64,000 bases of DNA, taken from the NCBI GenBank assembly GCA_041653875.1, contig JBAZEM010000003.1, positions 102,424-166,423 of the forward strand, given 5' to 3'. The notes under the pieces are model-generated. The model worked only from the letters and a program-made list of their open reading frames with translations. It searched no databases and had not been told where the DNA came from. How positions within the stretch are numbered: the first letter of the stretch is position 1; every line of letters begins with the position of its first letter. Source of the stretch: Kiritimatiellia bacterium (GTDB taxonomy: Bacteria; Verrucomicrobiota; Kiritimatiellia; JAAZAB01). This document shows, in pieces, positions 20,963 through 61,773 of this stretch. The position numbers and the translations under genes were made by a program.

Positions 20963-20989
20963 AACATGCCCTGCACAAGTTAGGCCCCG

Positions 20990-45026: not shown

Positions 45027-45163
45027 TTTTGGTCTCAATCGCTAAATTAAGTCTTGGGCAACTTTGCCGTTCTCACGAACGGCGACTACACCGATCAAGT
45101 GTAGTCGCGCTTCGAGAGAACCGCTATGTTTTTAAAATTCCCATGCATTGAACCGAGGTAATT

Positions 45164-45646: not shown

Positions 45647-45726
45647 TTTCGCGCAAAGACGATGATAATGGTTATAGTGCACACGACCCGTCATGGAAAC
45701 GACGCAACAAGGGAGGAGCCGGCGTT

Positions 45727-46056: not shown

Positions 46057-46060
46057 ACCT

Positions 46061-46479: not shown

Positions 46480-46925
46480 TCTACATCGAGTTAGGCGGCC
46501 AAAGGCCGCGACTTTGCCGTTCTCTCGAACGGCGCTACAACGATCCGGTGTAGTTGCGGTTCGATAGAACCGCTTGCCGCCGTGTGGATTGAAATTCCTT
46601 AGCATCAAGTTAGGCCCCGCAGCGGGGCGGCTTTTCATAACGCCCGGTGAGGGCACCGGGCCTACAGTATTGTAGGCCGGGTCCCCTGACCCGGCGGGTT
46701 TGGATTTCCTATACATCAAGTTAGACCCCGAGGAAGGGGGCAACTTTTTCATGTAGAGCCGACTTTATGTCGGCTATCTTCGGACAGAATAGCCGGTATT
46801 CCGCCAAAAGCGGATCCGCCTATGGAGGAAAAACCGGCTCTACATCGGATTGTTATGCCATAGGCATATCCGCCACCCGCCGTCGCATAAAGCTATGGCG
46901 GGCAGGCTGGCGGAAAATTCCTGTA
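46480..46925. repeat. Repeat cluster: family C, family B/E hairpins (gttaggccccgc..., ataacgcccggtgagggcaccgggcc...gtaggccgggtcccctgacccggcggg), family A units
   Basis: Seen in sequence. Modules match copies at 39945-40140 and 20990-21330. Confidence 0.7.
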
Positions 46926-47124
46926 CATGCACTAATCGCCGAGCGCATAAAATCGCGCTTTGCCGACTTCTTGCGGCACAAAATTACCAAAATCAAACAT
47001 GAAATTGCTATAAAGTCACGGCGGCAAATGGCACGATACGGGCCGTTTTAATAAAAGGATTCAATAAGGTCTATGGCGGCTTCCATACAAAAGCCGAAAC
47101 CGTATCGGATGAAAGAATAGCGCC

Positions 47125-47826
47125 ATGTGCGAAAAATGTGGATGTTCAGATCGTGCGAGCCATCACCGTGCGTCAGACCATGACCGCGCGGACCTGCGCC
47201 ATCTGGACCACCTTGCGGAACAGAATCGAATGTTTTTCCAATCCAAGCGCGTGCTGGCCATCAATGTGCTGTCGTTTTCCTCATCCAGCGCCCGTCCGTT
47301 GCTCCGGCAAACGGTGGCCGAATGGGGCCGGCATCGTCATGTGGCTGTGGTGGACAGCGTCTTTTTGGAGTCCATTCATGCGGCCCATGATCATGAGTCC
47401 AGCCATTGCCATGCCCACGACGAGGCCGGGGAGGATCTGGGGTTGCTGGATGCGCACAAAATCAGCCATGCATTGCACGCCCTGGATTTGGACGGGGTGG
47501 ATGTTCTTCTCCTGGAAAACGGCGGAAGCGCCGCCTGCCAGGCGCTGAACGATTTGGGCGAAGTCCTCCGCGTAGCGGTCTTTTCCGTCCGGGATGGCGA
47601 ACTGAAACCGCTCAAGTTTCCTCCATTTTTCCAGAAGGCCGACGCTGTCGTTATCCAGGACATGGATCAGGCGGACGCGCTCGGCTTTGACCTGAGCAAG
47701 GCCCGCGCAAACGTCCGGAGCGTGGCGCCCCAGGCCGCGTTACTGGAGGCCTCGGCTCGCACGGGAACGGGGCTTGGCGAATGGTATGCGTTTTTGGAAG
47801 CGGGTTTGAAACGGTTCGAGGCGTAA
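47125..47826 (+). CDS. HypB-like (G3E family) metallochaperone homolog with degenerate Walker A / G4 motifs
   Basis: N-terminal MCEKCGC (HypB high-affinity Ni CxxCGC). His-rich stretch. Region aligns to HypB NLVSSPGSGKTTLL but reads NVLSFSSSSARPLL. CH and ENxG..C metal motifs are retained. The NKxD position reads QDMD. Confidence 0.6.
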   Translation: MCEKCGCSDRASHHRASDHDRADLRHLDHLAEQNRMFFQSKRVLAINVLSFSSSSARPLLRQTVAEWGRHRHVAVVDSVFLESIHAAHDHESSHCHAHDEAGEDLGLLDAHKISHALHALDLDGVDVLLLENGGSAACQALNDLGEVLRVAVFSVRDGELKPLKFPPFFQKADAVVIQDMDQADALGFDLSKARANVRSVAPQAALLEASARTGTGLGEWYAFLEAGLKRFEA

Positions 47827-47844
47827 GGTAGTCTCCGAGGAATG

Positions 47845-48040
47845 GAGTGACTTTTTCATGTAGAGCCGATTTTATGTCGGCTATCTTCGGGGCATAATAG
47901 CCGGTATTCCGCCAAAAGCGGATCCGCCTATGGAGGAAAAACCGGCTCTACATCGGATTGTCCGCCCCAGGCTGATCCGCCTCCCGCCGCCGCATAAAGC
48001 CATGGCTGGCAGGCTGGCGAAAAATTCCTTAACATCAACG
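47845..48040. repeat. Family A MITE-like repeat copy upstream of the HMT gene
   Basis: tgtagagccgattttatgtcggctatcttcgg...ggcggatccgcctatggaggaaaaaccggctctacatcggattg. Confidence 0.7.
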
Positions 48041-48079: not shown

Positions 48080-48976
48080 ATGGCAAAGAATACAATCGCG
48101 AATGAAGTCCACAAGGGGCGCGTTCTGGTATCCGACGGGGCATGGGGAACGTTTTTGCAGAAGAAAGGCTTGAAGACGGGCGAATGCCCTGAACTCTGGT
48201 GCGTAACGCACCAACCGGATGTGCTCGACATTGCCAGGAGCTATATCGCCGCCGGCGCCGACATGATCGAATCCGACAGCTTCGGCGGCACACGCTACAA
48301 ACTGGAGCATTTTGGCCTGGCGGACCGCACCGCGGAAATCAATAAAGCCGCCGCCGCCATTTCCCGGGAAGCGGCCGGCGCCGACAAGTGGGTGATCGCC
48401 TCTGTCGGCCCAACCGGACGGATGACGGCCATGGGCGACGTGACGGAGCAGGATTTGTATGACGCGTTCAAGGAACAAGCCCTGGCCCTGGCCGCCGGCG
48501 GCGCGGATGCGTTGTGCATCGAAACCATGAGCGCCCTGGACGAAGCCTCCGCCGCGATCCGCGCCACGCGCGAAAACACAAAATGCGAAGTCATCTGCAC
48601 GTTCACGTTCGATCGCACCCTGCAGGGCGGATATCGAACCATGATGGGCGTATCGCCGACTGAGGCGGCCCGCGCGGCCGTGGCCGCCGGCGCCCATGCG
48701 ATCGGCGCCAACTGCGGCAACGGCATGGAACGGATGATCGAGATCGTGAAAGAAATGCGCGCGGCGGCGCCCAAGACCCCGATCCTGGTGCATGCCAATG
48801 CCGGCCTGCCGAAGAACGTGAACGGCGTGGACGTCTTTCCGGAAACTCCGGCTGACATGGCCGGCCGCGTGGCGCCCCTGGTGGCGGCCGGCGCAAACAT
48901 TATTGGCGGATGTTGCGGCACCACGCCGGCGCATATCGCGGCCATCCGCAAAGCAGTGGACGGATTAAAACGTTAA
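48080..48976 (+). CDS. Homocysteine S-methyltransferase-domain protein (MetH Hcy-binding/MmuM-like, Zn-dependent)
   Basis: GGCCGTTPAHI zinc motif, GANCGNG, TIM-barrel Hcy-domain pattern. AAGGAG RBS and ATG at 48080. The listed ORF start lies in a repeat. Confidence 0.75.
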   Translation: MAKNTIANEVHKGRVLVSDGAWGTFLQKKGLKTGECPELWCVTHQPDVLDIARSYIAAGADMIESDSFGGTRYKLEHFGLADRTAEINKAAAAISREAAGADKWVIASVGPTGRMTAMGDVTEQDLYDAFKEQALALAAGGADALCIETMSALDEASAAIRATRENTKCEVICTFTFDRTLQGGYRTMMGVSPTEAARAAVAAGAHAIGANCGNGMERMIEIVKEMRAAAPKTPILVHANAGLPKNVNGVDVFPETPADMAGRVAPLVAAGANIIGGCCGTTPAHIAAIRKAVDGLKR

Positions 48977-48997: not shown

Positions 48998-50059
48998 ATG
49001 AGCTTTCAACCGAAATTTTTGGCCTCGGCCATCGGCAGCATGCCCTTCGATAACGCGGATTACGCCGTGGAAGTTTCACTGAAGAACCTGCCGCAGGCGC
49101 CGATTTGGCCGCAGCTTCCCAAATTCGGCATGAACGAACAGATGGAGATTCAGTATTCCGAAGGCATGCCCTGCGCCGTGATCGACCGGGACAAGCAGCG
49201 CCTCTATTTCAACACGTCCGGCGATTACTCCGAGTCCTTTGCCGCGTTTTACGAGACGTATATGGCCGCGACCGAAGGCGGCGATCTCTCCGCCCTGGCC
49301 ATCAGCCCCGCTTTTTCGCGCGGCATTTACGCCTTGGAAAAGCGTCTCCAGGCCGGCGGCAAAAAGCTGCCCTACGTAAAAGTGCAGACCACCGGGCCGT
49401 GCAGTTTTGCCCTGACGATCGTGGACGAAAACAAGCGGGCGATCTATTACAACGAGGAATTCCTCGACATGATCGTAAAGACCCTGGCGCTGAAATGCCG
49501 CTGGCAAATCCGCAAGTTCAAGCCGTTTGCGGAACGCATCATTTGTTTCGTTGACGAGCCCATTCTCTCCGCCTTCGGCAGTTCGACCTATGTATCGGTC
49601 AAACGCGAAGACGTGGTCGCCCGAATCGGCGAAGTGGTCGAGGCGATTCATGCGGAAGGCGGACTCGCCGGCATTCATTGCTGCGGCAACACGGAGTGGA
49701 GCATCCTGATCGACGCGGGTGTGGACATCGTGAATTTTGACGCCTTCGGTTTCGGCGAGACGATCGCCATGTATGCCGACGCGGTCAAAAGCCACCTCGC
49801 CCGGGGCGGCGTCCTGGCCTGGGGGATCGTGCCGACTTCCACGGCCATCCGGGAACAAACCGCGGATACGCTGGCCGCCAAACTGGAGCAGACCATGCAA
49901 CACCTCGCCGGCAAGGGGATCGATCCGGCCTTGATTGCGCAACAAGCCATGCTGACGCCGTCATGCGGCACGGGTTCGCTGGAGCCGGCCGACGCGCTCA
50001 AGGTCTTCGAAACGCTGGCGGCGCTGTCCGTGAAAATGCGGGCGCAATACCGGTTTTAA
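48998..50059 (+). CDS. Core-MetE-like (cobalamin-independent methionine synthase catalytic-domain family; UroD-like fold) methyltransferase
   Basis: FVDEPIL (MetE IQIDEPA-type motif). HCCGN and SCGTGS Zn-ligand motifs. 353 aa. Confidence 0.6.
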   Translation: MSFQPKFLASAIGSMPFDNADYAVEVSLKNLPQAPIWPQLPKFGMNEQMEIQYSEGMPCAVIDRDKQRLYFNTSGDYSESFAAFYETYMAATEGGDLSALAISPAFSRGIYALEKRLQAGGKKLPYVKVQTTGPCSFALTIVDENKRAIYYNEEFLDMIVKTLALKCRWQIRKFKPFAERIICFVDEPILSAFGSSTYVSVKREDVVARIGEVVEAIHAEGGLAGIHCCGNTEWSILIDAGVDIVNFDAFGFGETIAMYADAVKSHLARGGVLAWGIVPTSTAIREQTADTLAAKLEQTMQHLAGKGIDPALIAQQAMLTPSCGTGSLEPADALKVFETLAALSVKMRAQYRF

Positions 50060-50095: not shown

Positions 50096-50311
50096 ATGAG
50101 CGACATCCGGTGTCCGGGACAGGACCAGCGCTATTGGAAGCCGGGCGATATTTTTTACGCCGGCTGTCCCTGGTGCGGCGCGGAAATCGAATTTTGGAAG
50201 GACGAGCCGGTTCGGATTTGTTCGAAATGCAGGCGCGAAGTGCGGAATCCACGAATGGACCTTGGATGCGCCAAGTGGTGCAAAGAGGCGGACAAATGCC
50301 TGGGACGCTGA
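50096..50311 (+). CDS. Small 8-Cys zinc-ribbon-like protein
   Basis: 71 aa. CPGQ...CPWC...CSKC...C..C...C pattern. Strong GGAGGAGG RBS 5-6 nt upstream. Confidence 0.5.
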   Translation: MSDIRCPGQDQRYWKPGDIFYAGCPWCGAEIEFWKDEPVRICSKCRREVRNPRMDLGCAKWCKEADKCLGR

Positions 50312-50321
50312 AAACGACTTC

Positions 50322-51095
50322 ATGAAAATAGCCATTTCAGGCAAGGGCGGGGTCGGAAAGTCAACCTTGGCGGCGGCGCTGTCCTTGCTTCTGGCGCGCA
50401 AGGGCCGGCAAGTGCTGGCCGTGGATGCCGATCCGGACTCCAATCTCGGGGCATCCCTGGGCATCCCGGCGGCGGACCGCCGGGCGATCGTGTCCATTGC
50501 CCGCCAAGTCGCCTTGATCGAGGAGCGCACGGGCGCGAAAGTCAGCCAGTTCGGCCAGGTCTTTAAGATGAATCCGGATGTCGCGGATATCGCGGATACT
50601 TTTGCCTGGCGGCACAACGGCGTGGCCTTGCTGGTGCTGGGCGCGGTGAAACGGGGCGGAGGCGGATGCGCTTGTCCGGAGAATGTGCTGCTCAAGGCGC
50701 TGGTGACCGAGTTGGTGTTGCGGCGGGACGAGGCCCTGGTGATGGACATGGAAGCCGGCATCGAGCATCTCGGACGGGGCACGACCCGGGGCGTGGATCT
50801 GATGCTGGTTGTGGTGGAGCCCGGCCAGCGGTCTCTGGATACCGCCCGCCGTGTGTTCGAGTTGGGCAGGCAACTGGGCTTGCGCCGTTTCCGGGTCGTG
50901 GCGAATAAAATCGCGAGCCCAGCCGACGAAACCTTCGTCCGTTCGGCCTTTAACGAGGAAGAATTGATCGGCGCGATTCCGTATTCCGAGGCCTTGCGCG
51001 GAGCGGACCGGGATGGCCGTTCCGTGTTGGACGGCATCCCCCCGGACATCCTGGCCAGGTTCGAAACAATTTTACGGCAAGTTGAACAAACGTAA
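50322..51095 (+). CDS. cooC: CO dehydrogenase nickel-insertion ATPase CooC
   Basis: P-loop SGKGGVGKST. CACPE Ni-binding CxC motif. Confidence 0.85.
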   Translation: MKIAISGKGGVGKSTLAAALSLLLARKGRQVLAVDADPDSNLGASLGIPAADRRAIVSIARQVALIEERTGAKVSQFGQVFKMNPDVADIADTFAWRHNGVALLVLGAVKRGGGGCACPENVLLKALVTELVLRRDEALVMDMEAGIEHLGRGTTRGVDLMLVVVEPGQRSLDTARRVFELGRQLGLRRFRVVANKIASPADETFVRSAFNEEELIGAIPYSEALRGADRDGRSVLDGIPPDILARFETILRQVEQT

Positions 51096-51418: not shown

Positions 51419-52198
51419 ATGAGTTTCACGATTGCCATAACGGGCAAAGGGGGGGTCGGCAAAACGACGCTCGCGGGTCTTCTGGTGAAACGCCTGATCG
51501 CCTCCGGACGCCGGCCCGTCCTGGCCGTGGACGCGGACCCCAACACCTGTTTGGACGCCGCGCTGGGCGTAAAAATCCGGCAGACGGTCGGCGGCGGCCG
51601 GGAAGAGGCCCGTCAAATCGCCGGCAAGGGGCTGGCGTCCGGCATTTCCAAACAGCAACTGTTGGAGCTGAAAATCGAGGAAAGCTTGGTGGAGGCCGAG
51701 GCTTTCGATTATCTCGCCATGGGACGGCCCGAGGGGCCGGGCTGTTATTGCTATGCCAATAATGTATTGAAATCGGCCTTGGAGACGCTGGCCGGCCATT
51801 ACCCCTATGTGGTGCTCGATAACGAGGCCGGATTGGAAAACCTCTCGCGCCGGATCGTGCGCAAAGTGGATCTTTTGATCATGGTGTCGGACCCGTCCCG
51901 CCGCGGCTTGGAAACGGTGCGGCGCTTGCACGCGCTGGCGCGGGAAATGGGCGTGGCCTTCGACCGTCTGGCTTTGGTGGTCAACCGCCTGCGGCAGGAA
52001 ACGCTGCCCGCGGAGGTCGAGGCCGTCCGCGCTGAAACCGGCGCCCAGGCGGTCTGGGGTTTGCCGGATCTCGCGGCGGTGGCGGAGCGAGCGGAGCGCG
52101 GCGAGTATGGATGCGACCTTCCGGCGGACAACGCGCTGGTGCGAAAAGTGGATGAGTTGCTGCGGGTTTTAGTGCCTGGCCGCGAAACTGGAGGATGA
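51419..52198 (+). CDS. acsF: CooC/AcsF-type Ni-insertion ATPase (second paralog)
   Basis: P-loop TGKGGVGKTT. CYCYAN CxC motif. Confidence 0.8.
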   Translation: MSFTIAITGKGGVGKTTLAGLLVKRLIASGRRPVLAVDADPNTCLDAALGVKIRQTVGGGREEARQIAGKGLASGISKQQLLELKIEESLVEAEAFDYLAMGRPEGPGCYCYANNVLKSALETLAGHYPYVVLDNEAGLENLSRRIVRKVDLLIMVSDPSRRGLETVRRLHALAREMGVAFDRLALVVNRLRQETLPAEVEAVRAETGAQAVWGLPDLAAVAERAERGEYGCDLPADNALVRKVDELLRVLVPGRETGG

Positions 52199-54159
52199 TC
52201 AACGATATGACAACGGAGACGAAACCAACCAAAAAAGCGGAAGATCGCGCCTGGGATGCGGCCTCCGTTGCGGTGTTGAACAAGGCCGCGGCGGAGTGTA
52301 TCGACACCTGCTTCAGCCGCATGGACACCCAGCAGAACCAATGCGCCTTCGGCAAACAAGGCATCTGTTGCCGGATTTGCTATATGGGGCCTTGCCGCAT
52401 CACGGCGAAAGCCCCCCGCGGGGTGTGCGGCGCGGATGCCGACACCATTGTGGCCCGCAATTTGCTCCGCGAAGTGGCCGGCGGCACCGCGGCGCATTCC
52501 GACCACGGACGCCACCTGGCGCTGCTGCTCAAGCGCGTCGCCGAAGGGCAAGGCGGCGATTACCGGATCAAGGATGAAGCCGTCTTGCGCCAGGCGGCCC
52601 GCTGGTACCAGGTCGAAGAAAGCGGCCGGGCGGCGAACGCCGTGGCGCTGGATCTGGCCAAATTGTTCTTGAACGAGTTTGCCTCGCAGGAAGAGACGCT
52701 CCGGACTTTGGCGCTGGCGCCGCAGAAACGGCGGAGCGTCTGGGAAAAAGAAGGCATCCAGCCGCAGGGGATCGACCGCATGTGCGTGGAAGCCCTGCAC
52801 CGCTCGACCATGGGCGTGGATCACGATTACGCGCATCTGCTGAGCCATGCGTTCCGAACCGCCTTGGCCGATGGCTGGGGCGGATCGCGGATTGCCACAA
52901 TCGTGTCCGATATTCTCTTCGGTTCGCCCGCGCCGGTGCGCAGCGAGGCGAATCTCGGCGTGCTGGGCGCCAAAACCGTGAACGTGGTGGTCCATGGCCA
53001 TGAACCCGCGCTTTCCGAAATGCTGGCCATTGCGTCGCAGGATGCGGACATGCTGGCGCTGGCGCGCGCGGCGGGGGCGGAAGGCATCACGCTGGCGGGC
53101 ATTTGTTGCACCGCCAACGAAATTTTGATTCGCCGCGGCATTCCGATCGCCGGGAATTTGCTGCAACAGGAATTGGCGATCGTCACCGGCGCCGTCGAGA
53201 TGATGGTGGTGGATGTGCAGTGCTGCATGCCCAGCTTGCCGACCGTGGCCGCGGCTTATCACACGGAAGTCGTTTCCACCAGCGCGATCGCCAAGACCCT
53301 TGGCACCACGCAGGCGGCCTTTGACGAGGAAAAGGCCCTGGCCTGCGCCAAGGACCTGCTCCGCCGCGCCATTGCCAACTTCAAGAACCGCCAGAGCGCC
53401 AAAGTCGCGATTCCGCCCTTGCGCTCGCCGCTGGTGGCCGGCTTTGGCGTCGAGGCAATCAAATATATGCTCGGCGGCCGTTACCGCGCCTCGTTTCGTC
53501 CGTTGAACGACGCCATCATGCAGGGCCGCATCCACGGCGTGGTGGGAATTGTCGGTTGCAACAACCCCAAGACGCGGGTCGATGAATACATCAACACCCT
53601 GACCAAGGCCTTGATCCAACGCAATGTGCTGGTGCTTAAGACCGGTTGCGCGGCGATTGCCTCGGCCAAGGAGGGACTCTTGACGCCCGAGGCGGCCTTG
53701 GAAGCGGCCGGGCCCGGCCTGCGCGAAGTGTGCGAAGCCATCGGCATCCCGCCGGTCTTGCACATGGGCAGTTGCGTGGACAATTCCCGCATCCTCGAGG
53801 CCGCCACGGAGGTCGTGCGGGAAGGAGGCTTGGGCGACGATCTTTCCATGATCCCGGCCGTGGGGGTGGCGCCGGAATGGATGAGCGAGAAAGCCGTGGC
53901 CATCGGCTTCTATTTTGTCGCCTCGGGCGTGGACGTCATCCTCGGGCATCCTTTCCGCATCGCCGGTTCGGCCAAGGCAACCCAATTCCTGAACACGGAT
54001 GTCCGTGAATCGTTCGGCGCAAGCTTCCACGTTTGCGAAGACGCGCCCGCCGCCGTCGAGCGGATTTTCGAACTGCTCGACCAGCGCCGCGAAAAATTGG
54101 GAATCAACCGCAAGATGGAGCGCAAGCTCTTTGACATGAAAGACAGGAGAGGCGTATAA
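52195..54159 (+). CDS. cooS: Anaerobic Ni-Fe-S carbon monoxide dehydrogenase catalytic subunit (CooS/AcsA)
   Basis: GICCRICYMGPCRI B/D-cluster motif. C-cluster ligand regions (HGH, GICCTANE, GCNN..., MGSCVDN). Alternative start ATG 52207. Confidence 0.85.
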   Translation: MINDMTTETKPTKKAEDRAWDAASVAVLNKAAAECIDTCFSRMDTQQNQCAFGKQGICCRICYMGPCRITAKAPRGVCGADADTIVARNLLREVAGGTAAHSDHGRHLALLLKRVAEGQGGDYRIKDEAVLRQAARWYQVEESGRAANAVALDLAKLFLNEFASQEETLRTLALAPQKRRSVWEKEGIQPQGIDRMCVEALHRSTMGVDHDYAHLLSHAFRTALADGWGGSRIATIVSDILFGSPAPVRSEANLGVLGAKTVNVVVHGHEPALSEMLAIASQDADMLALARAAGAEGITLAGICCTANEILIRRGIPIAGNLLQQELAIVTGAVEMMVVDVQCCMPSLPTVAAAYHTEVVSTSAIAKTLGTTQAAFDEEKALACAKDLLRRAIANFKNRQSAKVAIPPLRSPLVAGFGVEAIKYMLGGRYRASFRPLNDAIMQGRIHGVVGIVGCNNPKTRVDEYINTLTKALIQRNVLVLKTGCAAIASAKEGLLTPEAALEAAGPGLREVCEAIGIPPVLHMGSCVDNSRILEAATEVVREGGLGDDLSMIPAVGVAPEWMSEKAVAIGFYFVASGVDVILGHPFRIAGSAKATQFLNTDVRESFGASFHVCEDAPAAVERIFELLDQRREKLGINRKMERKLFDMKDRRGV

Positions 54160-57100
54160 TGTCTAAACTCATCTGCAGCAACGCCATCGATGGCGCCATC
54201 GAATGGGTGGCCCGGGCCGAAGCAAAACTGGCGGAGGCAATCCGCTCCAAAGGCGAAGCGTGTCCGGCGGCCTTTCCATCCACCGCGTATTTCCTGCCCA
54301 TCATCTATTCGTTCCTGGGCCAAAAGGTCGCCACCCTCGGAGACATGCGGAGCATTCTGCGCCGCGCCAAGGAACTGCTCCCGGCGCGGCCGTCCCGGCA
54401 GGTCTGGCTGCCGTATTTGGGCAATACGCTGGATGCCGGCGTGGCCGCGCTTTTTGCGTGCGAGATTCTGGAAGCCTGCAAGTATGTCATCGGCCCCAAC
54501 CCGGTGGAAGGCATTTGGCTGGGCGCGGCCAACGACGTGATCATGCGCGAGCGCGGCATCGAGTTCGTGGATGGAACGGCGCCGGGATTCGCCGCCATTG
54601 TCGGCGCGGCGCCGAACAAGGAAATCGCCGTGCAGATCGCCCGGGAATTACAGCAAAAGAATTTGTACGTGTTCATGGCCGGTTGCACGAATGGCGTGCA
54701 GTTCGCCGAACAGCTCGCCGAGGCCGGCGTGCAGCTGGGTTGGGAAACCCGACTGGTACCGTTCGGCCGCGATGTTTCGGCGGCGGTTTACGCCCTGGGG
54801 TTCGCCAACCGCGCGGCCCTTTCGTTCGGCGGCGTCAAGCCCGGCGATTACGAAGCCAACCTGAAGTATAACAAGAACCGTATCTTTGCCTTTGTGCTGG
54901 CGCTGGGCGAAGTGACGGCCGACAAATATGCCGTGGCGGCCGGCGCGATCAATTACGGCTTCCCGGTCATCGCGGACACCAACATCCCGCAGATCCTTCC
55001 CACGGGGGTGTGCACCTACGAGCATGTGGTATCCAACGTCCCCTACGAGAGCATGGTGGAACGCGCCCTGGAAGTCCGCGGCTGTAAAATCAAGATCGCC
55101 AAGGTGCCGATTCCCGTGCCCTATGGCCCGGCCTTCGAGGGCGAGCGCATCCGCAAGGCGGATGTTCATGCGGAGTTCGGCGGCAACCTGACGCCCGCGT
55201 TCGAATTCGCCACCTCCGTGGGCCTGGACCAGATCAATGACGGCGAGGTGGAAATCATCGGGCCGGATATCGACCAGGCGCCGGCCGGAACGGCGCTGCC
55301 TTTGGCCATCTGGGTGGAAGCGGCCGGGCGGAAAATGCAGCCGGATTTCGAGCCCATTCTGGAACGCCAGATCCATCACATGCTTAACGGCGCGGAAGGC
55401 ATCTGGCACATGGGCCAGCGCGACATCGTCTGGACGCGCGTCTCCAAGGCCGGGTTTGCCAAAGGCCTGCGTCTGCGCCATTACGGCGATATCCTCCATG
55501 CCAAATTGTTGTCCGACTATCCCGCCATCGTGGACAAGGTCAAGGTGACGCTGGTGACGGACCGGGCGGAAGTCGAGAAGCGCCTGGCCGTGGCCCGCAA
55601 AGTGTATGACGAGCGCAACCGCCGGCTGGAGACCATGACCGACGATTCCGTGGATACGTTTTACTCCTGTCTGCTGTGCCAGTCCTTTGCCCCCAACCAC
55701 GTCTGCATCATCACGCCCGAACGCCTGGGCTTGTGCGGCGCCTACAACTGGCTGGACGGCAAGGCGGCCTATGAAATCGACGAGACTGGCCCAAACCAGC
55801 CGGTGAAAAAAGGCGAATGCCTGGATCCGGTCAAGGGCGTGTGGAAGGGCATCGATGACTTCGTCTATGTGAACAGCCACAAGACCGTCCCTTCGTTCTG
55901 CGCCTATTCGATCATGGACAAGCCCATGACCAGTTGCGGCTGCTTCGAAGCGATTGTGGCCTATGTGCCGGAATGCAACGGCGTCATGGTGGTGAACCGG
56001 GAATTCCTGGGCGAAACGCCCGCCGGCATGACGTTCTCGTCCCTCGCCGGAAATGTGGGCGGCGGTCAGCAAACCCCTGGTTTCATGGGATGCGGCAAAG
56101 TGTTCCTGACATCGCGAAAATTCATGTTTGCCGAAGGCGGACACAAGCGCCTGGTCTGGATGCCCAAGGCGCTTAAAAAACTGCTGGCCGACGACCTGAA
56201 AAGACGGTTTACGGAACAGGGCGCCCCGGATCTCATGGACAAGATTGCCGACGAATCGGTCGGCAGCGATGGACAGACCGTCCGCGCCTTCATGGAAAAG
56301 GTGGACCACCCCGCGCTGCGCATGGACGACATGGCCACCTATGCCGAAGCGGCGCCCAAGGCGGAGGCGGCTCCCAGCACGCCGGCGCCCGCGGCGACAC
56401 TCATGGAAACGGCGGCGGCAAAATCCCTTGCGCCAGAACTCACGCCCGGAAAACCGGACGAGGCCCCGGCATTGACGCCGGACCTGATCGCCCAGATCAA
56501 GGCGCAGGTGGCGCATGAAGTCAAGACGACACTCACACAAGAGATCGTCCGCGACATCATCGGCTCCTTGAGCCGTCAATTTCTGGGCGGCTCGAGTCCT
56601 GTTTTGCCGGCAACCGCTCCCGCGGCAATGCCCGCGGCGCCGGCGCCCGTTGCCGCCCGCGCGCCGGAGTCAAAAAAGCCAGGCGTTGCGGAGCGCCTGG
56701 CCGCTGTCCGGACATTTACCATCAAGAAAGAGGCCTGCGAAGTCCCGGTGTGGACCGTGAAACTCGGGGCCACCAAGGCCGAAGGCGGAACGCGCGGCCG
56801 CACCTATATGATCGGCGGCGCCAAAGCGTTGCCGTTTCACGGCTGGGAAGGCAAGGCCGCCAATCCGCCGCGCATTGCCATGGAAGTTTACGATGTGGTG
56901 AGTGAAAAGTATCCGGCCGTGTTGCGCGCGATTTACGGCGACCTGTTAAACGATCCGGCGGCCATGGCGCGTGAATGCGTGACCAAGCACGGGGCCGATT
57001 TGATTTCCGTGCGCTTGGACGGCACCCACCCGGAGCGCGGCAACCGCTCGCCGGAACAAGCCGTCGAAGTCGTCCAGTCCGTGCTCCGGGCCGTGGATGT

Positions 57101-57674
57101 GCCGTTGATTGTCACCGGCCACAACAATTTCGACCGGAACAATGAGGTCATGAAGGCGGTGGCCCAGGCGTGCGCCGGTGAAAACCTGCTCTTGAACTGG
57201 GTGGAACAGAACAATTACCGGACGATCGCCGGCGCGGCCATTGCCTACAACCATGCCGTCGTTGCGCAGGCGCCCATCGACGTGAACATCGCCAAGCAAT
57301 TGAACATTCTGCTGACGAATATGGATTTGAAACCCGAGCGGATTGTCATGGACCCCATGACCGGCGCGCTGGGCTATGGCATCGAATACACCTATTCGGT
57401 CATGGAGCGCATTCGGCTGACCGGACTCGGCGGCGACAAGATGCTGGCCGGCCCGCTGATGGTCGCGCCCGGACCGGAATGCGTCAAAGTCAAGGAATGC
57501 AAGGCCGCGGAACGGGATTTCCCGGCCTGGGGTAATCTGGCCCAGCGCGCCGCGCTCTGGGAGCTGACCACCGCGCTCAGCCTGCTGTATGCCGGCGCCG
57601 ACCTGCTTGTCCTGAACCATCCGGATGCCGTTCGGGAACTGAAGTCGGCCATCGCACAGTTGATGGAGGAATAA
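54159..57674 (+). CDS. acsB: Acetyl-CoA synthase AcsB fused through an Ala/Pro-rich linker to a CFeSP small-subunit (AcsD/CdhD-like) TIM-barrel domain
   Basis: AcsB A-cluster motif CGCFE plus CLLCQSFAPNHVC. C-terminal ~330 aa match AcsD (GGTRGRTYMIGG, IAMEVYD, MDPMTGALGYGIEY). 1171 aa in total. Confidence 0.8.
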   Translation: MSKLICSNAIDGAIEWVARAEAKLAEAIRSKGEACPAAFPSTAYFLPIIYSFLGQKVATLGDMRSILRRAKELLPARPSRQVWLPYLGNTLDAGVAALFACEILEACKYVIGPNPVEGIWLGAANDVIMRERGIEFVDGTAPGFAAIVGAAPNKEIAVQIARELQQKNLYVFMAGCTNGVQFAEQLAEAGVQLGWETRLVPFGRDVSAAVYALGFANRAALSFGGVKPGDYEANLKYNKNRIFAFVLALGEVTADKYAVAAGAINYGFPVIADTNIPQILPTGVCTYEHVVSNVPYESMVERALEVRGCKIKIAKVPIPVPYGPAFEGERIRKADVHAEFGGNLTPAFEFATSVGLDQINDGEVEIIGPDIDQAPAGTALPLAIWVEAAGRKMQPDFEPILERQIHHMLNGAEGIWHMGQRDIVWTRVSKAGFAKGLRLRHYGDILHAKLLSDYPAIVDKVKVTLVTDRAEVEKRLAVARKVYDERNRRLETMTDDSVDTFYSCLLCQSFAPNHVCIITPERLGLCGAYNWLDGKAAYEIDETGPNQPVKKGECLDPVKGVWKGIDDFVYVNSHKTVPSFCAYSIMDKPMTSCGCFEAIVAYVPECNGVMVVNREFLGETPAGMTFSSLAGNVGGGQQTPGFMGCGKVFLTSRKFMFAEGGHKRLVWMPKALKKLLADDLKRRFTEQGAPDLMDKIADESVGSDGQTVRAFMEKVDHPALRMDDMATYAEAAPKAEAAPSTPAPAATLMETAAAKSLAPELTPGKPDEAPALTPDLIAQIKAQVAHEVKTTLTQEIVRDIIGSLSRQFLGGSSPVLPATAPAAMPAAPAPVAARAPESKKPGVAERLAAVRTFTIKKEACEVPVWTVKLGATKAEGGTRGRTYMIGGAKALPFHGWEGKAANPPRIAMEVYDVVSEKYPAVLRAIYGDLLNDPAAMARECVTKHGADLISVRLDGTHPERGNRSPEQAVEVVQSVLRAVDVPLIVTGHNNFDRNNEVMKAVAQACAGENLLLNWVEQNNYRTIAGAAIAYNHAVVAQAPIDVNIAKQLNILLTNMDLKPERIVMDPMTGALGYGIEYTYSVMERIRLTGLGGDKMLAGPLMVAPGPECVKVKECKAAERDFPAWGNLAQRAALWELTTALSLLYAGADLLVLNHPDAVRELKSAIAQLMEE

Positions 57675-57896: not shown

Positions 57897-59234
57897 ATGG
57901 CGCTTACCGGTTTGCAAATCCAAAAACTGCTCCCAAAAACCAACTGCAAGGAATGCGGCTCCAACACCTGCCTGGCCTTTGCCATGAAACTGGCGGCGAA
58001 AAAGGCGGACTTGTCCGCATGCCCTTACGCATCGGAAGAAGCCAAGCGCGTGCTCGGCGCGGCGAGCGAACCGCCGGTCCGGGAGATCGCGCTCGGCGGC
58101 GGCCGCCGGCTCAAACTGGGCGCGGAAACCGTCCTGTTTCGCCATGAAAAAACGTTCGTGAACCAGACCGCGCTCGCGGTGAATGTGAACGACACCGATG
58201 AACCCGCGGCGCTGGCAAAGACGTTGCAGGCCATTCGCGATTACGTGCTGGTGCGCGTGGGTGAAACCCTGCTGGTGGAGTTGGTTTGCGTGACCCAAAA
58301 AGGGAATAGCCCGGCCCGCTTTGCCGCGCTCGCCAAACAGGCGTGGGAGACCGTTAAGCGGCCGCTCATTCTGCGCAGCGCCGACGCGGACGCCCTGCGC
58401 GAAGCGGCGGCGGCCGTCAAAGGCTCCGGCAGCGTGCTGGCCCCCGCCACGCCGGAAGCCGCCCGCGCGCTGGCGGCGGTCGCCAAAGAAAACGGTCATG
58501 CCCTGGCCGTCACCGCGCCGGATTTGAACGATTTGACGGCGCTGGCCGCCGGCTTGAGAGCAGAGGGGTTCGGCGATCTGATCCTGCAGTTTCAGACGCA
58601 TTCGCTGGCCGAACAATTCCAGACCAATACGATTGCCCGGCGCGCCGCGCTCAAGGACAATTACAAACCGCTCGGCTATCCCAGCCTCCGGTTCGTGGAA
58701 GGCGCCGAACTGCTCGCCTGCGCCACCCAGGCTGTCACGGAAATCTGCAAGTATGGCGGCATCTGCGTTCTGCCGGTTTTCGATCCGGCGCTCTTGGCCG
58801 TCCTTATGACCCTGCGCTTGAATCTTTATACTGACCCTCAAAAACCGATCCAGGTGGAGCCCAGGATTTACCCCGTGGGCGAACCCAAACCGGATTCGCC
58901 GGTGTTTGTGACCACGAACTTCTCGCTGACCTATTTCATTGTGTCCGGCGAAATCGAAAACAGCGGCACAAGCGCCTGGCTGGTGGTCCCGGAATGCGAA
59001 GGCATGAGCGTGCTCACCGCCTGGGCGGCCGGGAAATTCTCCGGCGCCTCGATCGGGAAATTTATCAAGGAGTCCGGTCTGGAACAACAAGTCACGACGC
59101 GTCACATCGTGATCCCCGGATATGTCGCGCAAATCAGCGGCGAACTGGAAGAAAGTCTCCCCGGCTGGAAAGTGCTCGTGGGGCCGCAGGAAGCCGCCGA
59201 TATCGAGAGCTTTGTCAAGGCGCGGCTGGCATAG
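57897..59234 (+). CDS. acsC: Corrinoid iron-sulfur protein large subunit (AcsC/CdhE)
   Basis: N-terminal CKECGSNTC...CPY [4Fe-4S] motif. TIM-barrel and C-terminal corrinoid-binding region. Confidence 0.85.
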   Translation: MALTGLQIQKLLPKTNCKECGSNTCLAFAMKLAAKKADLSACPYASEEAKRVLGAASEPPVREIALGGGRRLKLGAETVLFRHEKTFVNQTALAVNVNDTDEPAALAKTLQAIRDYVLVRVGETLLVELVCVTQKGNSPARFAALAKQAWETVKRPLILRSADADALREAAAAVKGSGSVLAPATPEAARALAAVAKENGHALAVTAPDLNDLTALAAGLRAEGFGDLILQFQTHSLAEQFQTNTIARRAALKDNYKPLGYPSLRFVEGAELLACATQAVTEICKYGGICVLPVFDPALLAVLMTLRLNLYTDPQKPIQVEPRIYPVGEPKPDSPVFVTTNFSLTYFIVSGEIENSGTSAWLVVPECEGMSVLTAWAAGKFSGASIGKFIKESGLEQQVTTRHIVIPGYVAQISGELEESLPGWKVLVGPQEAADIESFVKARLA

Positions 59235-59810: not shown

Positions 59811-59844
59811 TTTATTGACGGCTCCTAAAGAAACCCTCCAAACA

Positions 59845-61773
59845 ATGCCGCTTGTCACATTCCAACCTTCGGGCCGGACCGTACAAATTCCCCCCAAAAC
59901 CGAGTTGCTGGATGCGATCCGGGCCGCCGGCGTTTCCATCGATTCGCCCTGCGGAGGACGCGGCACCTGCGGCAAGTGCATCGTCCGCATTGTCGCCGGC
60001 GCCGTGGATGCCGGCCAGAGCCTCGGGATGCTGCCCTCCGCCACGGTGGCGGATGGTTACGTGCTTGCCTGCAAGACCAAGGTGCAGGATTCCAACCTGA
60101 CCGTGGAAATCCCAGCAATACAGGCGCGGGAAGGCGCGCAAATCGCCGCGGGCGATGAAACCATCCTGGTCCGCGGCGAGCTGCTCCCAAAAAACTGGGA
60201 ATACGATTCCCTTTCCGTCAAGTGGTGCGTGGACGTGCCGCCGCCCCGGCTGGAAGACGGACTTTCCGACTTGGACCGGCTCACCCGCCGCATTCAGCGG
60301 GAATGGGGCGCCGTGGAATTGCATTACCCCTTGACGGTTATCCGCGAGGTGGCGAACGCGCTTCGCGCCCAGCAGGGCGTGGTGACCGCCACCTTGATCC
60401 GGACCCCGGAACGGATTTATGTGGTCCGCCTGGAAGCGGGCGACCAAACCACCAGCCATTATGGCATTGCCGTGGACATCGGCACCACCACGGTTTCGGT
60501 CCAGCTCGTGAATCTGGCGCTGGCGGAAATCGTGGGGACGCGCAGCGATTACAACGACCAAATCGCCTGCGGCCTCGATGTGATCGGCCGGATCAATTAC
60601 GCCCGGCGGCCGGACCGGCTCCGGGAATTGCGCGAACGAATTCTGGCCACGATCAATCGCCTGATTTGCCAGGTAACGGAGCAGCAGGGGATCGCCCCGC
60701 ATCTCGTCAGCAACGCCGTGCTCTCCGGCAACACCACGATGGTGCATTTGCTGCTGGGCCTGAACCCGGAATATATCCGGCTGAAACCCTACACCCCCAC
60801 GGTTCTGGAAGTTCCCTACCTGACCGCCGCGGAAGTCGGCATCGATATCGCCCCGGATTCCTGGATTTATATTTCCCCGAGTGTCGGCAGCTATGTCGGC
60901 GGCGACATCACCGCCGGCGTGCTCTGCACGGATTTGGCGATGGACACCGCGGACGTTAACCTCTTTATCGATATCGGCACCAACGGCGAACTGGTGGTGG
61001 GCAACAACGAGTTTCTCCTTACCTGCGCCTGTTCCGCGGGCCCGGCATTCGAAGGCGGCGGGGTCGATTGCGGCATGCGCGCGGCCCTCGGCGCCATCGA
61101 GCGCGCGGAGGTGAACCCCGAGGATGGCGCCGCCCGCTATTGGACCATCGGCAATGTCCCGCCCAAGGGTATTTGCGGTTCCGGCATGATTTCCCTGCTG
61201 GCCGATCTGATCAAAACCGGCTGGCTCGATTTCGCCGGAAAACTTAACCGTGCTCGCCCGTCGCCCGCCATTAAAATCGAAGGACGCCACGCTCACTATA
61301 TCATTGCGCCGGCCGGCCGCGACGGATTGACACACCCCGTTGTCATCAGCGAACCGGATATCGAAAATATCGTCCGCGCCAAGGCCGCCATCTATGCCGC
61401 TTGTTCGCTTTTGGTTCAGCACGCGGGCCTGACGTTCGGGGATTTGAAAAACGTTTACATCGGCGGTGGATTCGGACGGTTCCTCGATTTGGAGAAGGCC
61501 ATGACAATCGGCCTGATCCCGGAACTGCCGCGGGAAAAATACCACTACATCGGCAATTCCTCCCTGCTGGGTTCCTATATTGTGCTGGTTTCGCAGGATT
61601 ACCGCCAACGCCAATTGGAACTCGCCCGGCGCATGACGTATGTGGATCTCAGCTCGGATCCCCAATATATGGACCAGTACACCGGCGCGTTATTTCTGCC
61701 GCATACGGACCCGGCCCTGTTTCCCGGAGTTCATGCCGCGCTTCGTTCCAGCGGCATAACGCGTCCGGGATGA
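59845..61773 (+). CDS. Reductive activator of corrinoid enzyme (RACo-like: 2Fe-2S ferredoxin + ASKHA ATPase)
   Basis: MPLVTFQPSGRTV...CGGRGTCGKC 2Fe-2S motif. GIAVDIGTTT ASKHA phosphate-1. ~640 aa. Confidence 0.8.
   Translation: MPLVTFQPSGRTVQIPPKTELLDAIRAAGVSIDSPCGGRGTCGKCIVRIVAGAVDAGQSLGMLPSATVADGYVLACKTKVQDSNLTVEIPAIQAREGAQIAAGDETILVRGELLPKNWEYDSLSVKWCVDVPPPRLEDGLSDLDRLTRRIQREWGAVELHYPLTVIREVANALRAQQGVVTATLIRTPERIYVVRLEAGDQTTSHYGIAVDIGTTTVSVQLVNLALAEIVGTRSDYNDQIACGLDVIGRINYARRPDRLRELRERILATINRLICQVTEQQGIAPHLVSNAVLSGNTTMVHLLLGLNPEYIRLKPYTPTVLEVPYLTAAEVGIDIAPDSWIYISPSVGSYVGGDITAGVLCTDLAMDTADVNLFIDIGTNGELVVGNNEFLLTCACSAGPAFEGGGVDCGMRAALGAIERAEVNPEDGAARYWTIGNVPPKGICGSGMISLLADLIKTGWLDFAGKLNRARPSPAIKIEGRHAHYIIAPAGRDGLTHPVVISEPDIENIVRAKAAIYAACSLLVQHAGLTFGDLKNVYIGGGFGRFLDLEKAMTIGLIPELPREKYHYIGNSSLLGSYIVLVSQDYRQRQLELARRMTYVDLSSDPQYMDQYTGALFLPHTDPALFPGVHAALRSSGITRPG

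What the first reader, a model, noticed from the sequence alone, without database searches (positions are those of the whole stretch)
47125..47826. HypB paralog with destroyed P-loop but intact metal-binding motifs, at the head of the Ni-enzyme cluster
The protein aligns residue-by-residue with the HypB GTPase core. It retains the N-terminal CxxCGC Ni site, a His-rich tract and the CH/Cys dimer-interface metal ligands. However, Walker A GSGKTT is replaced by SSSARP and the NKxD guanine-specificity motif reads QDMD. This predicts a nucleotide-independent Ni-binding pseudo-GTPase. Genuine CooC ATPases are encoded a few kb downstream. The protein could therefore act as Ni storage or hand-over partner for CODH/ACS maturation rather than for hydrogenase.
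Basis: partly seen in the sequence, partly recalled or inferred. Interest (0 to 1): 0.7.

Follow-up and report, generated by a model that had tools for sequence, protein, structure and literature searches.

The report
HypB-like nickel protein lacking GTPase motifs
This gene encodes a conserved relative of the hydrogenase nickel chaperone HypB that has lost all its GTP-binding motifs but keeps its N-terminal nickel-binding motif, and in every genome examined it heads a CO-dehydrogenase/acetyl-CoA-synthase operon instead of sitting with hydrogenase genes, so it is probably a passive nickel donor for those enzymes.

Summary
The ORF at 47125-47826 (+, 233 aa) is real. It is a HypB homolog by sequence (TIGR00073, 132 bits against a cut-off of 121) and by predicted fold (TM about 0.8 to 2hf8 and 2wsm). 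The CH pair is lost in register, and the window's H-C-H lies in a variable, disordered loop.

This is not decay. About 50 relatives share the same losses, and none has a Walker A or NKxD in any register. All fetched ORFs are intact, with dN/dS of 0.13-0.26. The family has its own invariant residues: H88, H111, H115 and Q139, with H90 at 95%.

Gene neighbourhoods split cleanly. All 22 degenerate loci with enough flank precede methyltransferase, two cooC, CODH and ACS genes, and none has hyp genes. None of the 93 canonical HypB loci is near CODH/ACS. The family is rare: 9 of 185,579 species genomes, all PVC-group MAGs.

Best reading: a nucleotide-independent nickel store or donor for CooC-driven CODH/ACS maturation. 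This is inferred, not shown. It is a new variant of a known kind, and no description turned up in the searched literature.

The parts
47125..47826 (+). Degenerate HypB-like ORF (233 aa plus stop), the first gene of the conserved CODH/ACS cluster
   Evidence: family alignments
47125..47148 (+). N-terminal MCEKCGCS. M1, C2, C5, G6 and C7 are invariant in the family (the CxxCGC high-affinity Ni motif of E. coli-type HypB)
   Evidence: PMC7055735 and PMC13202556 for the motif's role
47149..47211 (+). His/Asp-rich N-terminal linker (DRASHHRASDHDRADLRHLDH), disordered in the model
47272..47298 (+). Walker A remnant SFSSSSARP (canonical SSPGSGKTT). Lys and Thr never occur at these positions in the family
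47356..47448 (+). Switch I, strand beta3 and the CH motif are replaced by a His/acid-rich loop (SVFLESIHAAHDHESSHCHAHDEAGEDLGLL). H88 is invariant and H90 is 95% conserved. Residues 91-104 have pLDDT below 50. Median 7 His in the family against 1 in canonical HypB
47449..47469 (+). DAHKISH. D109, A110, H111 and H115 are invariant in the family. H111 and H115 align with the M. jannaschii HypB surface-site histidines H100 and H104
   Evidence: PMC13202556
47515..47541 (+). Switch II remnant ENGGSAACQ (canonical ENVGNLVCP). N132, G134 and Q139 are invariant; C138 is only 71% conserved
47596..47622 (+). GELKPLKFP, retained from canonical EGEDKPLKYP. K164 corresponds to A. fulgidus HypB K148, the lysine needed for dimerisation
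   Evidence: PMC7055735
47653..47667 (+). NKxD remnant IQDMD. The Lys is never present in the family (E 71%, D 17%)
48080..48976 (+). Homocysteine-S-methyltransferase-family protein (PF02574, 298 aa) with the Zn motifs GANCG and GGCCG. It is the next gene in every locus of the family
48998..50059 (+). 353-aa MetE/MtaA-like barrel with an invariant HxC...C zinc motif and no Pfam hit
50096..50311 (+). 71-aa ORF with 8 Cys, zinc-ribbon-like, conserved in the cluster
50322..51095 (+). CooC-type ATPase 1 (GKGGVGKST, CAC)
51419..52198 (+). CooC-type ATPase 2 (GKGGVGKTT, CYC)
52195..54159 (+). Ni-CODH (Prismane/CODH family)
54159..57674 (+). Acetyl-CoA synthase fused to a CdhD/AcsD domain (1171 aa)
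57897..59234 (+). Corrinoid Fe-S protein large subunit (AcsC-like)
59815..61773 (+). RACo, the reductive activator of the corrinoid protein

Best explanation
The gene encodes a neofunctionalised HypB that keeps the fold but has lost the GTPase. It no longer binds or hydrolyses nucleotide, and it no longer has the Cys-His...Cys G-domain metal site that GTP controls in real HypB.

What selection has kept:
- two His/Asp-rich disordered tracts suited to binding several more metal ions weakly;
- a new set of four conserved histidines (H88, H90, H111, H115) at the base of the internal loop;
- the folded core, including the lysine used for dimerisation (K164).

I infer that the protein acts as a nucleotide-independent nickel store or donor for the three Ni sites of CODH/ACS (one in the C-cluster, two in the A-cluster). 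The energy-dependent insertion step would be left to the two CooC-type ATPases encoded in the same operon. Functionally this resembles CooJ of Rhodospirillum rubrum, or the storage half of Bradyrhizobium HypB.

Shown: loss of the motifs, conservation, purifying selection, exclusive linkage to CODH/ACS, and a lineage-restricted distribution.

Inferred: that the metal is nickel, that CooC or CODH/ACS is the recipient, and that the protein dimerises.
For: - HypB homology and fold.
- Family-wide replacement of Walker A, switch I, CH, switch II and NKxD, with M1/C2/C5/G6/C7 100% conserved. No motif in another register in any of the 50 sequences.
- Purifying selection: omega 0.13-0.26 in the least saturated pairs, with all 15 fetched ORFs intact. 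The constraint is 2-4 times more relaxed than on neighbouring genes, as expected after loss of catalysis.
- Neighbourhoods: 22 of 22 degenerate loci with flank carry the methyltransferase, CooC, CODH and ACS genes, and none has hyp genes. None of the 93 canonical HypB loci has a cluster gene, and most have hypA.
- It is always the first gene of the cluster, and the upstream neighbours vary.
- The same cluster works without it in Opitutaceae, Omnitrophota and Aminicenantes. It is therefore an optional accessory, as CooJ and CooT are (PMC13056359).
- The internal loop has a median of 7 His against 1 in canonical HypB.
- Literature: the CxxCGC site binds Ni at sub-picomolar Kd, the G-domain site prefers Zn, and His-rich HypBs store Ni (PMC7055735). 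CooJ is a His-rich Ni binder for CODH, and a role for HypB in CODH maturation is an open question (PMC6006190).
Against: - No experiment or tool here shows metal binding, and Cys3 and His tracts can also bind Zn or Co.
- The two genes immediately downstream are zinc-dependent methyltransferase types, so adjacency alone does not single out the Ni enzymes.
- The window protein's His tracts are modest (16 His in total) compared with classical storage HypBs (24 His near the N-terminus in B. japonicum).
- No physical link to CooC is known for any HypB.
- CODH/ACS clusters of the same type function in other phyla without this protein.
Confidence: 0.55

Rival explanations
1. It is a metal-independent or metal-sensing scaffold or regulator. 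On this reading the dead G-domain is kept as a docking module for CooC, CODH/ACS or the corrinoid protein. It would organise or gate assembly, with the Cys3/His sites serving as a nickel sensor rather than a supply.
For: The folded core is conserved, including K164 and the DLGE and KPLKxP segments, along with a new invariant surface set (H88, H111, H115, Q139, with H90 at 95%). Pseudoenzymes commonly act as scaffolds (general knowledge). The linkage to the cluster is strict.
Against: The most strongly conserved element is the known Ni-binding N-terminus (100%). The loop that changed most became His-rich, which points to metal handling rather than pure docking.
Confidence: 0.15
2. It is a zinc or cobalt chaperone or buffer for the methyl branch. 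It would serve the two Zn-dependent methyltransferases encoded immediately downstream, or the cobalamin protein, rather than the Ni enzymes.
For: - The next gene in every locus is a PF02574 methyltransferase with the GGCCG zinc motif, often only 14-60 nt away.
- The gene after that is a MetE-like barrel with an invariant HxC...C zinc motif (PMC7005905).
- In L005 cobalamin-biosynthesis genes lie directly upstream.
- His-rich HypB tracts also bind Zn and Co (PMC7055735).
Against: - The HypB site that prefers Zn (the G-domain CH...C site) is exactly the one that was lost. The retained CxxCGC site is the Ni site (PMC7055735).
- Opitutaceae locus L117 has the same methyltransferase, the 71-aa Cys-rich ORF and the MetE-like protein, yet has no HypB-like gene.
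- Known Zn chaperones of the G3E class belong to a different branch (COG0523) and are active GTPases (PMC2770081).
Confidence: 0.12
3. It still serves hydrogenase maturation. For example, it could be a nickel reservoir for a canonical HypA/HypB encoded elsewhere, or a heterodimer partner of a canonical HypB, and its position next to CODH/ACS would be incidental.
For: Canonical HypB and [NiFe] hydrogenases exist in related PVC bacteria, including a Kiritimatiellae MAG. NCBI and JGI annotate family members as HypB.
Against: None of the 22 loci has any hyp or hydrogenase gene within 10 kb on either side. The position at the head of the CODH/ACS cluster is kept across members that are only 40-50% identical. 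Canonical HypBs of the same group sit in hypF-D-E-A-B clusters.
Confidence: 0.06
4. It is a cryptic NTPase that binds nucleotide through a non-canonical pocket.
For: The beta1-loop-helix topology at the former P-loop is retained in the model.
Against: The Lys and Thr of Walker A, the switch I Asp/Thr, and the Lys of NKxD are absent from all 50 sequences. The replacing residues are themselves variable, so no alternative conserved pocket is evident.
Confidence: 0.03
5. It is a decaying pseudogene or a functionless relic.
For: It evolves faster than every neighbouring gene: 45-53% identity against 68-86%. In this organism it is flanked by copies of a dispersed repeat.
Against: The ORFs are intact in all 15 fetched loci. 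Omega is 0.13-0.26. About 40 columns are invariant across sequences that are roughly 50% identical. The position is conserved.
Confidence: 0.03

Closest known systems
GTPase-type HypB with an N-terminal CxxCGC motif and His-rich region (E. coli, Bradyrhizobium japonicum and Rhizobium leguminosarum HypB; TIGR00073, G3E family)
   Same: The proteins are homologous over the whole length, with the same fold. They share the MCxxCGC N-terminus, a His-rich linker, and the DLGE and KPLK[YF]P segments. The TIGR00073 model scores above its cut-off.
   Different: - Walker A, switch I, the CH of the G-domain metal site, switch II and NKxD are all absent.
- Strand beta3 is replaced by a disordered His-rich loop.
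- The Pfam cobW domain scores below threshold.
- The gene is never next to hypA or other hyp genes, and always heads a CODH/ACS cluster.
CooJ (Rhodospirillum rubrum), the His-rich Ni-binding accessory protein of CODH
   Same: Both are small, nucleotide-independent, His-rich proteins encoded with cooC and a Ni-CODH. Both are sporadically distributed and dispensable accessories. This is the closest functional analogy (PMC6006190, PMC13056359).
   Different: They are unrelated in sequence and fold. CooJ has a C-terminal tail with 16 His and no Cys3 site. The protein here is a HypB-derived alpha/beta domain with an N-terminal Cys3 motif. The similarity is functional analogy only; homology was not tested.
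The nickel-storage role of B. japonicum HypB ('nickelin'), which is separable from its GTP-dependent Ni mobilisation
   Same: It gives precedent for a HypB whose His-rich part stores Ni independently of the GTPase (PMC7055735, citing Olson and Maier 2000).
   Different: In B. japonicum the GTPase is intact and essential for hydrogenase maturation. Here only the storage-type elements remain.
The hypB gene in the Citrobacter amalonaticus Y19 cooS-cooC-cooT-cooJ-hypB cluster
   Same: A hypB-family gene sits in a CODH accessory cluster (PMC6006190).
   Different: That case is described as an ordinary HypB, and its motifs were not examined here. The review that reports it says a role for HypA/HypB in CODH nickel acquisition remains undemonstrated.

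Membership tests
HypB (TIGR00073 equivalog; GTPase-type HypB of the G3E family) | Profile score above the curated cut-off | tested here: met
   132.1 bits against a cut-off of 121.2. The stricter PRK10463 model scores 111 against 385, and Pfam cobW scores 20.0 against 20.7 while covering only residues 112-206.
HypB (TIGR00073 equivalog; GTPase-type HypB of the G3E family) | HypB/G3E alpha-beta fold | tested here: met
   The AF2 model has pLDDT 83.8. Foldseek finds 2hf8 at E 1e-15 with TMt 0.82, and 2wsm_B with TMt 0.88. Strand beta3 is not predicted.
HypB (TIGR00073 equivalog; GTPase-type HypB of the G3E family) | Walker A P-loop, [GS]xxGxGK[ST] | tested here: not met
   SFSSSSARP stands where SSPGSGKTT should be. 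G53, G55, K56 and T57 are each 100% conserved in 106 canonical sequences, and K and T are never present in the 46 aligned family sequences. There is no P-loop in any register in 50 family sequences.
HypB (TIGR00073 equivalog; GTPase-type HypB of the G3E family) | Switch I (GDxxTxxDAxR) and switch II/Walker B (ENVGNLVCP) | tested here: not met
   G78, D79, T82, D85 and R88 are replaced by S, V, E, H and H. Switch II reads ENGGSAACQ.
HypB (TIGR00073 equivalog; GTPase-type HypB of the G3E family) | Guanine-specificity motif [NT]KxD | tested here: not met
   The motif reads QDMD here. K179 is 100% conserved in canonical HypB and never present in the family.
HypB (TIGR00073 equivalog; GTPase-type HypB of the G3E family) | G-domain metal site CH-X30-34-C, stated to be present in all GTPase-type HypBs (PMC13202556) | tested here: not met
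   C106-H107 is replaced by G-L, and the position is variable in the family. Only the distal Cys138 remains, at 71% in the family, and it is lost in P0047-P0049.
HypB (TIGR00073 equivalog; GTPase-type HypB of the G3E family) | N-terminal high-affinity CxxCGC motif (a subclass feature) | tested here: met
   MCEKCGCS is present, and the motif is invariant in the family.
HypB (TIGR00073 equivalog; GTPase-type HypB of the G3E family) | Genomic association with hypA, other hyp genes or [NiFe]-hydrogenase genes | tested here: not met
   None of the 22 family loci has a hyp or hydrogenase gene within 10 kb on either side. Most of the 93 canonical loci do.
HypB (TIGR00073 equivalog; GTPase-type HypB of the G3E family) | GTP hydrolysis, and Ni transfer to HypA | not testable with these tools
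   These need biochemical assays.
Pseudoenzyme (pseudo-GTPase) | Retains the fold of an enzyme family, lacks the catalytic or binding motifs across the family, and is still under purifying selection | tested here: met
   Fold. Motif loss. Omega 0.13-0.26 with intact ORFs.
CooJ-type His-rich Ni accessory protein of CODH (functional class) | His-rich metal-binding region, and a gene encoded with cooC and cooS | tested here: met
   There are two His-rich tracts, and the internal loop has a median of 7 His in the family. The gene sits in an operon-like cluster with two cooC genes and CODH.
CooJ-type His-rich Ni accessory protein of CODH (functional class) | Sequence homology to R. rubrum CooJ | not tested
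   No CooJ sequence or profile was compared. The fold is HypB-like, so homology is not expected.
CooJ-type His-rich Ni accessory protein of CODH (functional class) | Binds several Ni(II) ions per monomer and supports CODH activation | not testable with these tools
   This needs metal-binding and activation assays.

The most novel reading that the evidence does not exclude
This would be the first natural pseudo-GTPase in the G3E metallochaperone class. A HypB was recruited from hydrogenase maturation to CODH/ACS maturation. Its GTP-gated Cys-His-Cys transfer site was replaced by a His4 site flanking a His-rich loop. The protein now hands nickel directly to the CxC sites of the CooC ATPases. That would make it the missing upstream nickel donor for C-cluster and A-cluster assembly in these bacteria.
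Probability: 0.35. Interest if true: 0.75.

Novelty: new variant of a known kind. Interest (0 to 1): 0.6.

Why it matters
How nickel reaches CooC/AcsF and then the C- and A-clusters of CODH/ACS is poorly understood. A 2018 review states that any involvement of HypA/HypB in CODH nickel acquisition 'remains to be demonstrated' (PMC6006190).

This small, soluble protein is linked only to CODH/ACS. It has lost everything a HypB needs for GTP-gated delivery and kept its nickel-binding N-terminus. That makes it a natural separation-of-function variant and a tractable handle:
- it can be purified;
- it can be tested for Ni binding and for transfer to CooC;
- it can be co-expressed with CODH/ACS.

It also matters for annotation. 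The family passes the TIGR00073 'equivalog' threshold and is labelled 'hydrogenase nickel incorporation protein HypB' in public records, which is probably functionally wrong. Counts of hydrogenase-maturation capacity in MAGs that rely on that label would be inflated for these lineages.

Tried and rejected
1. Alternative register for the GTPase motifs. None of the 50 family sequences has [AG]x4GK or [NT]KxD anywhere. The window's QKAD at residues 170-173 is not conserved (family A/S/Q, N/G/D, A, R/A/D) and lies before the strand, not after it. The other five reading frames hold only one chance match, on the minus strand.

2. Pseudogene. Rejected by the intact ORFs, omega of 0.13-0.26 and the invariant columns.

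3. The roughly 210-nt direct repeat that brackets the gene (46718-46928 and 47825-48035) as a mobile-cassette boundary. Rejected, because it is a dispersed intergenic repeat with at least six other copies or fragments in the window. It has no Rfam match.

4. Same-genome coexistence with a canonical hypB. P0303 (canonical) and P0023 (degenerate) both listed a 37,006-bp ENA contig, but the samples differ (ERZ24794672 and ERZ1426829), so this was a coincidence. The question stays open.

5. The 71-aa Cys-rich ORF as a HypA-like partner gained together with the degenerate HypB. Rejected, because in Opitutaceae it is present next to the methyltransferase without any HypB-like gene.

6. Sigma-70 promoter scan upstream of the gene: nothing found. 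The terminator-like hairpin just after the stop codon is weak and belongs to the repeat.

7. Literature searches for 'HypB' with 'pseudo-GTPase', and for 'G3E' with 'pseudoenzyme', returned no papers.

8. Geometry of the nucleotide pocket could not be inspected, because model coordinates are not exposed to scripts.
Full report
**The object**

Window 47125-47826 (+) is an ATG-initiated ORF of 233 codons. It matches NCBIfam TIGR00073 (hypB) at 132.1 bits, above the curated cut-off of 121.2. The Pfam cobW/HypB/UreG domain reaches only 20.0 bits (cut-off 20.7) and covers only the C-terminal half. The best solved relatives are the archaeal HypBs 2wsm (E 4e-22) and 2hf8 (E 7e-20). An AlphaFold2 model built on 26 family sequences is confident (pLDDT 83.8, pTM 0.81). 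The exceptions are residues 1-19 and 91-104. Its best structural matches are HypB structures (2hf8 at E 1e-15, target-normalised TM 0.82-0.88), followed by UreG and MeaB. The protein is therefore a HypB homolog with a HypB fold.

I aligned 45 family members plus the window protein against 106 canonical HypBs and tabulated residue frequencies in window numbering.

| Element | Canonical HypB (conservation) | This family | Window |
|---|---|---|---|
| Walker A | P52 (96%), G53 (100%), S/A54, G55 (100%), K56 (100%), T57 (100%) | S/P/A, R/G/Q, S, N/G/S, A/V, H/R/Q; Lys and Thr never occur | S-S-S-S-A-R |
| Switch I | G78 (91%), D79 (97%), T82 (81%), D85 (98%), R88 (94%) | lost | S, V, E, H, H |
| Strand and CH motif | Q99, T102 (100%), C106 (93%), H107 (98%), L108 (100%) | variable residues | G106-L107 at the CH position |
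| Switch II | E-N-V-G-N-L-V-C-P | E-N-G-G-S-A-A-C-Q | ENGGSAACQ |
| EGEDKPLKYP | D160 (95%), Y165 (98%) | D160 becomes L/S/F; Y165 becomes F | GELKPLKFP |
| [NT]K179xD181 | K 100%, D 99% | N/Q, E/D, x, D/N/E; Lys never occurs | Q-D-M-D |

No family sequence has [AG]x4GK or [NT]KxD in any register.

The claim that the 'CH/Cys dimer-interface ligands' are intact is wrong. The window's H94-C95-H96 lies in a variable insertion with pLDDT below 50, and C95 is G, a gap or D in relatives. The true CH position reads G-L. Cys138 is present here but in only 71% of the family, and it is absent from the most divergent members P0047-P0049. A 2026 study states that all GTPase-type HypBs have the CH-X30-34-C site (PMC13202556). 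This protein does not.

**What the family has kept or gained**

- M1, C2, C5, G6 and C7 are invariant, whereas only about 55% of the canonical set has this motif.
- The family has new invariant residues H88, H111, H115 and Q139, plus H90 at 95%. Of 50 sequences, 48 match HxH...DAHxxxH.
- H111 and H115 align with H100 and H104 of M. jannaschii HypB. In the crystal those two bind a surface zinc (PMC13202556). They are His in only 19% and 11% of canonical HypBs.
- The segment that forms switch I, strand beta3 and the CH motif in real HypB has become a disordered His/Asp/Glu-rich loop. It has a median of 7 His (range 3-12) against 1 in canonical HypB.
- K164 corresponds to A. fulgidus HypB K148, which is needed for dimer formation (PMC7055735). 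It is retained in 97% of the family.

**It is not a pseudogene**

- A word-indexed search found 45 relatives at 46-69% identity, none with a precomputed Pfam domain.
- An exhaustive profile search of 1.84 billion cluster representatives found only about seven 50%-identity clusters of the degenerate type (over 250 bits). From the next hit down (203 bits) the proteins aligned and those used carry the canonical motifs.
- All 15 fetched loci that carry a family member (12 distinct MAGs or contigs besides the window; L001/L002 repeat the window organism and L005 equals L014) have intact ORFs.
- In the least saturated pairs, dN/dS is 0.13 (L009/L012), 0.135 (L007/L013), 0.23 (L003/L007) and 0.26 (L010/L015). 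That is purifying selection, but 2-4 times weaker than on the neighbouring genes, whose values are mostly 0.02-0.15.
- Against the window protein, orthologues are 45-53% identical. The neighbouring gene products are 68-86% identical.

**Context**

In the window the gene is followed by:
- a PF02574 homocysteine-S-methyltransferase-family gene;
- a 353-aa MetE-like gene;
- a 71-aa Cys-rich ORF;
- two CooC-type ATPases (3kje matches at E 2e-45 and 2e-19; GKGGVGK[ST] plus CxC);
- Ni-CODH;
- an ACS::CdhD fusion;
- the corrinoid protein large subunit;
- RACo.

There are no hyp or hydrogenase genes anywhere in the 64 kb.

- 23 loci encode a degenerate protein. All 22 with enough flank have the methyltransferase, CooC, CODH and ACS genes downstream, and none has a hyp or hydrogenase gene within 10 kb.
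- 93 loci encode canonical HypB. None has a cluster gene. Most have hypA adjacent, and many have hypD, hypE, hypF or hydrogenase genes.
- Even L038, which is only 40% identical to the window protein, heads the same cluster.

The upstream neighbours differ between loci: CorA, cobalamin-synthesis genes, serS and STAS genes. The degenerate HypB is therefore the first conserved gene of the unit.

The family occurs in 9 of 185,579 species-representative genomes. All nine are PVC-group MAGs labelled Kiritimatiellae, Lentisphaerales or Verrucomicrobiota. The window organism is labelled Kiritimatiellia.

The core cluster (MetE-like, two CooC, CODH, ACS::CdhD) also exists in Opitutaceae, Omnitrophota and Aminicenantes, without any HypB-like gene. 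The protein is therefore a lineage-restricted accessory, much like CooJ and CooT, which occur only sporadically in CODH operons (PMC13056359).

**Mechanism (inference)**

In E. coli HypB the CxxCGC site binds Ni(II) with sub-picomolar Kd. The G-domain site prefers Zn (1 µM, against 12 µM for Ni). His-rich HypBs bind many Ni ions and are thought to store nickel (PMC7055735).

This family has discarded the GTP switch and the Zn-preferring G-domain site. It has kept the Ni-type Cys3 site and expanded its His-rich segments. The operon encodes enzymes that need three Ni ions per CODH/ACS protomer (established knowledge of the C- and A-clusters). It also encodes two dedicated CooC ATPases.

The most economical reading is a nucleotide-independent nickel store or donor upstream of CooC. 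I give this about 0.55. The rivals are:
- a scaffold or sensor role for the dead G-domain (0.15);
- a Zn or Co role for the adjacent methyl-branch enzymes (0.12);
- a residual hydrogenase role (0.06);
- a cryptic NTPase (0.03);
- a functionless relic (0.03).

The zinc rival deserves respect, because both downstream genes look like Zn enzymes (GGCCG, and HxC...C; PMC7005905). However, Opitutaceae has both of them without this protein.

**Comparison with what is known, and novelty**

The protein works most like CooJ, or like the storage half of B. japonicum HypB. By descent it is a HypB. It fails five of the defining HypB features that I could test: Walker A, the switches, NKxD, the CH...C site and the hyp neighbourhood. 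It should therefore not be filed as a functional HypB, even though it passes the TIGR00073 threshold and carries that name in public records.

A hypB next to cooS is on record for Citrobacter amalonaticus Y19, and the role of HypB in CODH maturation is described as undemonstrated (PMC6006190). I found no paper describing a P-loop-less HypB or any G3E pseudoenzyme in the searchable library. That is absence of evidence within that library only.

I rate it a new variant of a known kind.

**Limits**

- The metal identity, the partner and the oligomeric state are all unmeasured.
- I could not determine whether the same genomes also carry a canonical hypB. One Kiritimatiellae MAG does, but it is a different assembly.
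- I could not inspect the model's pocket, because coordinates are not exposed to scripts.

Noticed in passing
window 48998-50059 (+); also L117, L118, L119: A 353-aa protein with no Pfam hit. It has more than 5,000 homologs at about 70% identity across many phyla (Aminicenantes, Omnitrophota, Opitutaceae, Phycisphaerae, Clostridia, KSB1). It sits directly beside two cooC genes, CODH and ACS::CdhD. The AF2 model (pLDDT 81) resembles MetE C-terminal barrels and the MtaA-like structure 4ay7, and H227-x-C229...C323 is invariant (the MetE zinc motif). No pterin-binding AcsE was seen in the cluster genes scanned in the window or among the Pfam hits listed for the gene calls of the related loci. It may be an unrecognised corrinoid-dependent methyltransferase of this Wood-Ljungdahl cluster type (compare core-MetE, PMC7005905).
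   Followed up: partly
window 50096-50311 (+): A 71-aa ORF with 8 Cys (CPxC...CxxC plus four more). It is 75-80% identical in the genome loci compared (L007-L015) and matches no family. In Opitutaceae (L117, 4413-4622, minus strand, not called as a gene) it follows the PF02574 methyltransferase. It therefore travels with that gene, not with the degenerate HypB.
   Followed up: partly
window 46718-46928 and 47825-48035; also 20976-21340, 39939-40116, 42142-42240, 59277-59802, and fragments at 11860-11930 and 45058-45125: A dispersed intergenic repeat of about 150-230 nt, 85-96% identical between copies, on both strands and sometimes in tandem. It contains the palindrome TTCCGCCAAAAGCGGATCCGCCTATGGAGGAA and a weak terminator-like hairpin. 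It has no Rfam match. Two copies bracket the degenerate hypB gene. The repeat also creates spurious ORF extensions, such as the 47930 start of the methyltransferase ORF, whose true start is probably 48080.
   Followed up: partly
window 54159-57674 (+): Acetyl-CoA synthase is fused to a CdhD/AcsD-like domain (the small subunit of the corrinoid Fe-S protein) in one 1171-aa protein. The same fusion occurs in the Opitutaceae and Aminicenantes loci.
   Followed up: no
window 51142-51375 (+): A 77-aa coiled-coil ORF lies between the two cooC genes. A 76-aa counterpart follows the first cooC in L117. Its function is unknown.
   Followed up: no
P0103 (from the exhaustive protein search, not in the window): A different odd HypB. 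Its P-loop is intact (SSQGAGKT), but the CH motif and ENVGNLVCP are lost (ENQANTPSS). It may be a second, independent kind of HypB degeneration.
   Followed up: no
window 47125-47229 compared with public gene calls (P0001): Public gene calls (JGI, ENA, Logan) for this organism start the protein at Met36 (198 aa). That cuts off the MCxxCGC motif, which is invariant in all relatives.
   Followed up: yes
window 42951-44011 (+): A DUF6922 plus AbiEii nucleotidyltransferase pair (a type IV toxin-antitoxin-like module) lies between the BatD-type operon and the ferredoxin-reductase-like gene.
   Followed up: no
window 45643-46393 (+): Two tandem STAS-domain (anti-sigma-antagonist-like) genes lie directly upstream of the cluster in this organism only. 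They are not conserved in the other loci.
   Followed up: no
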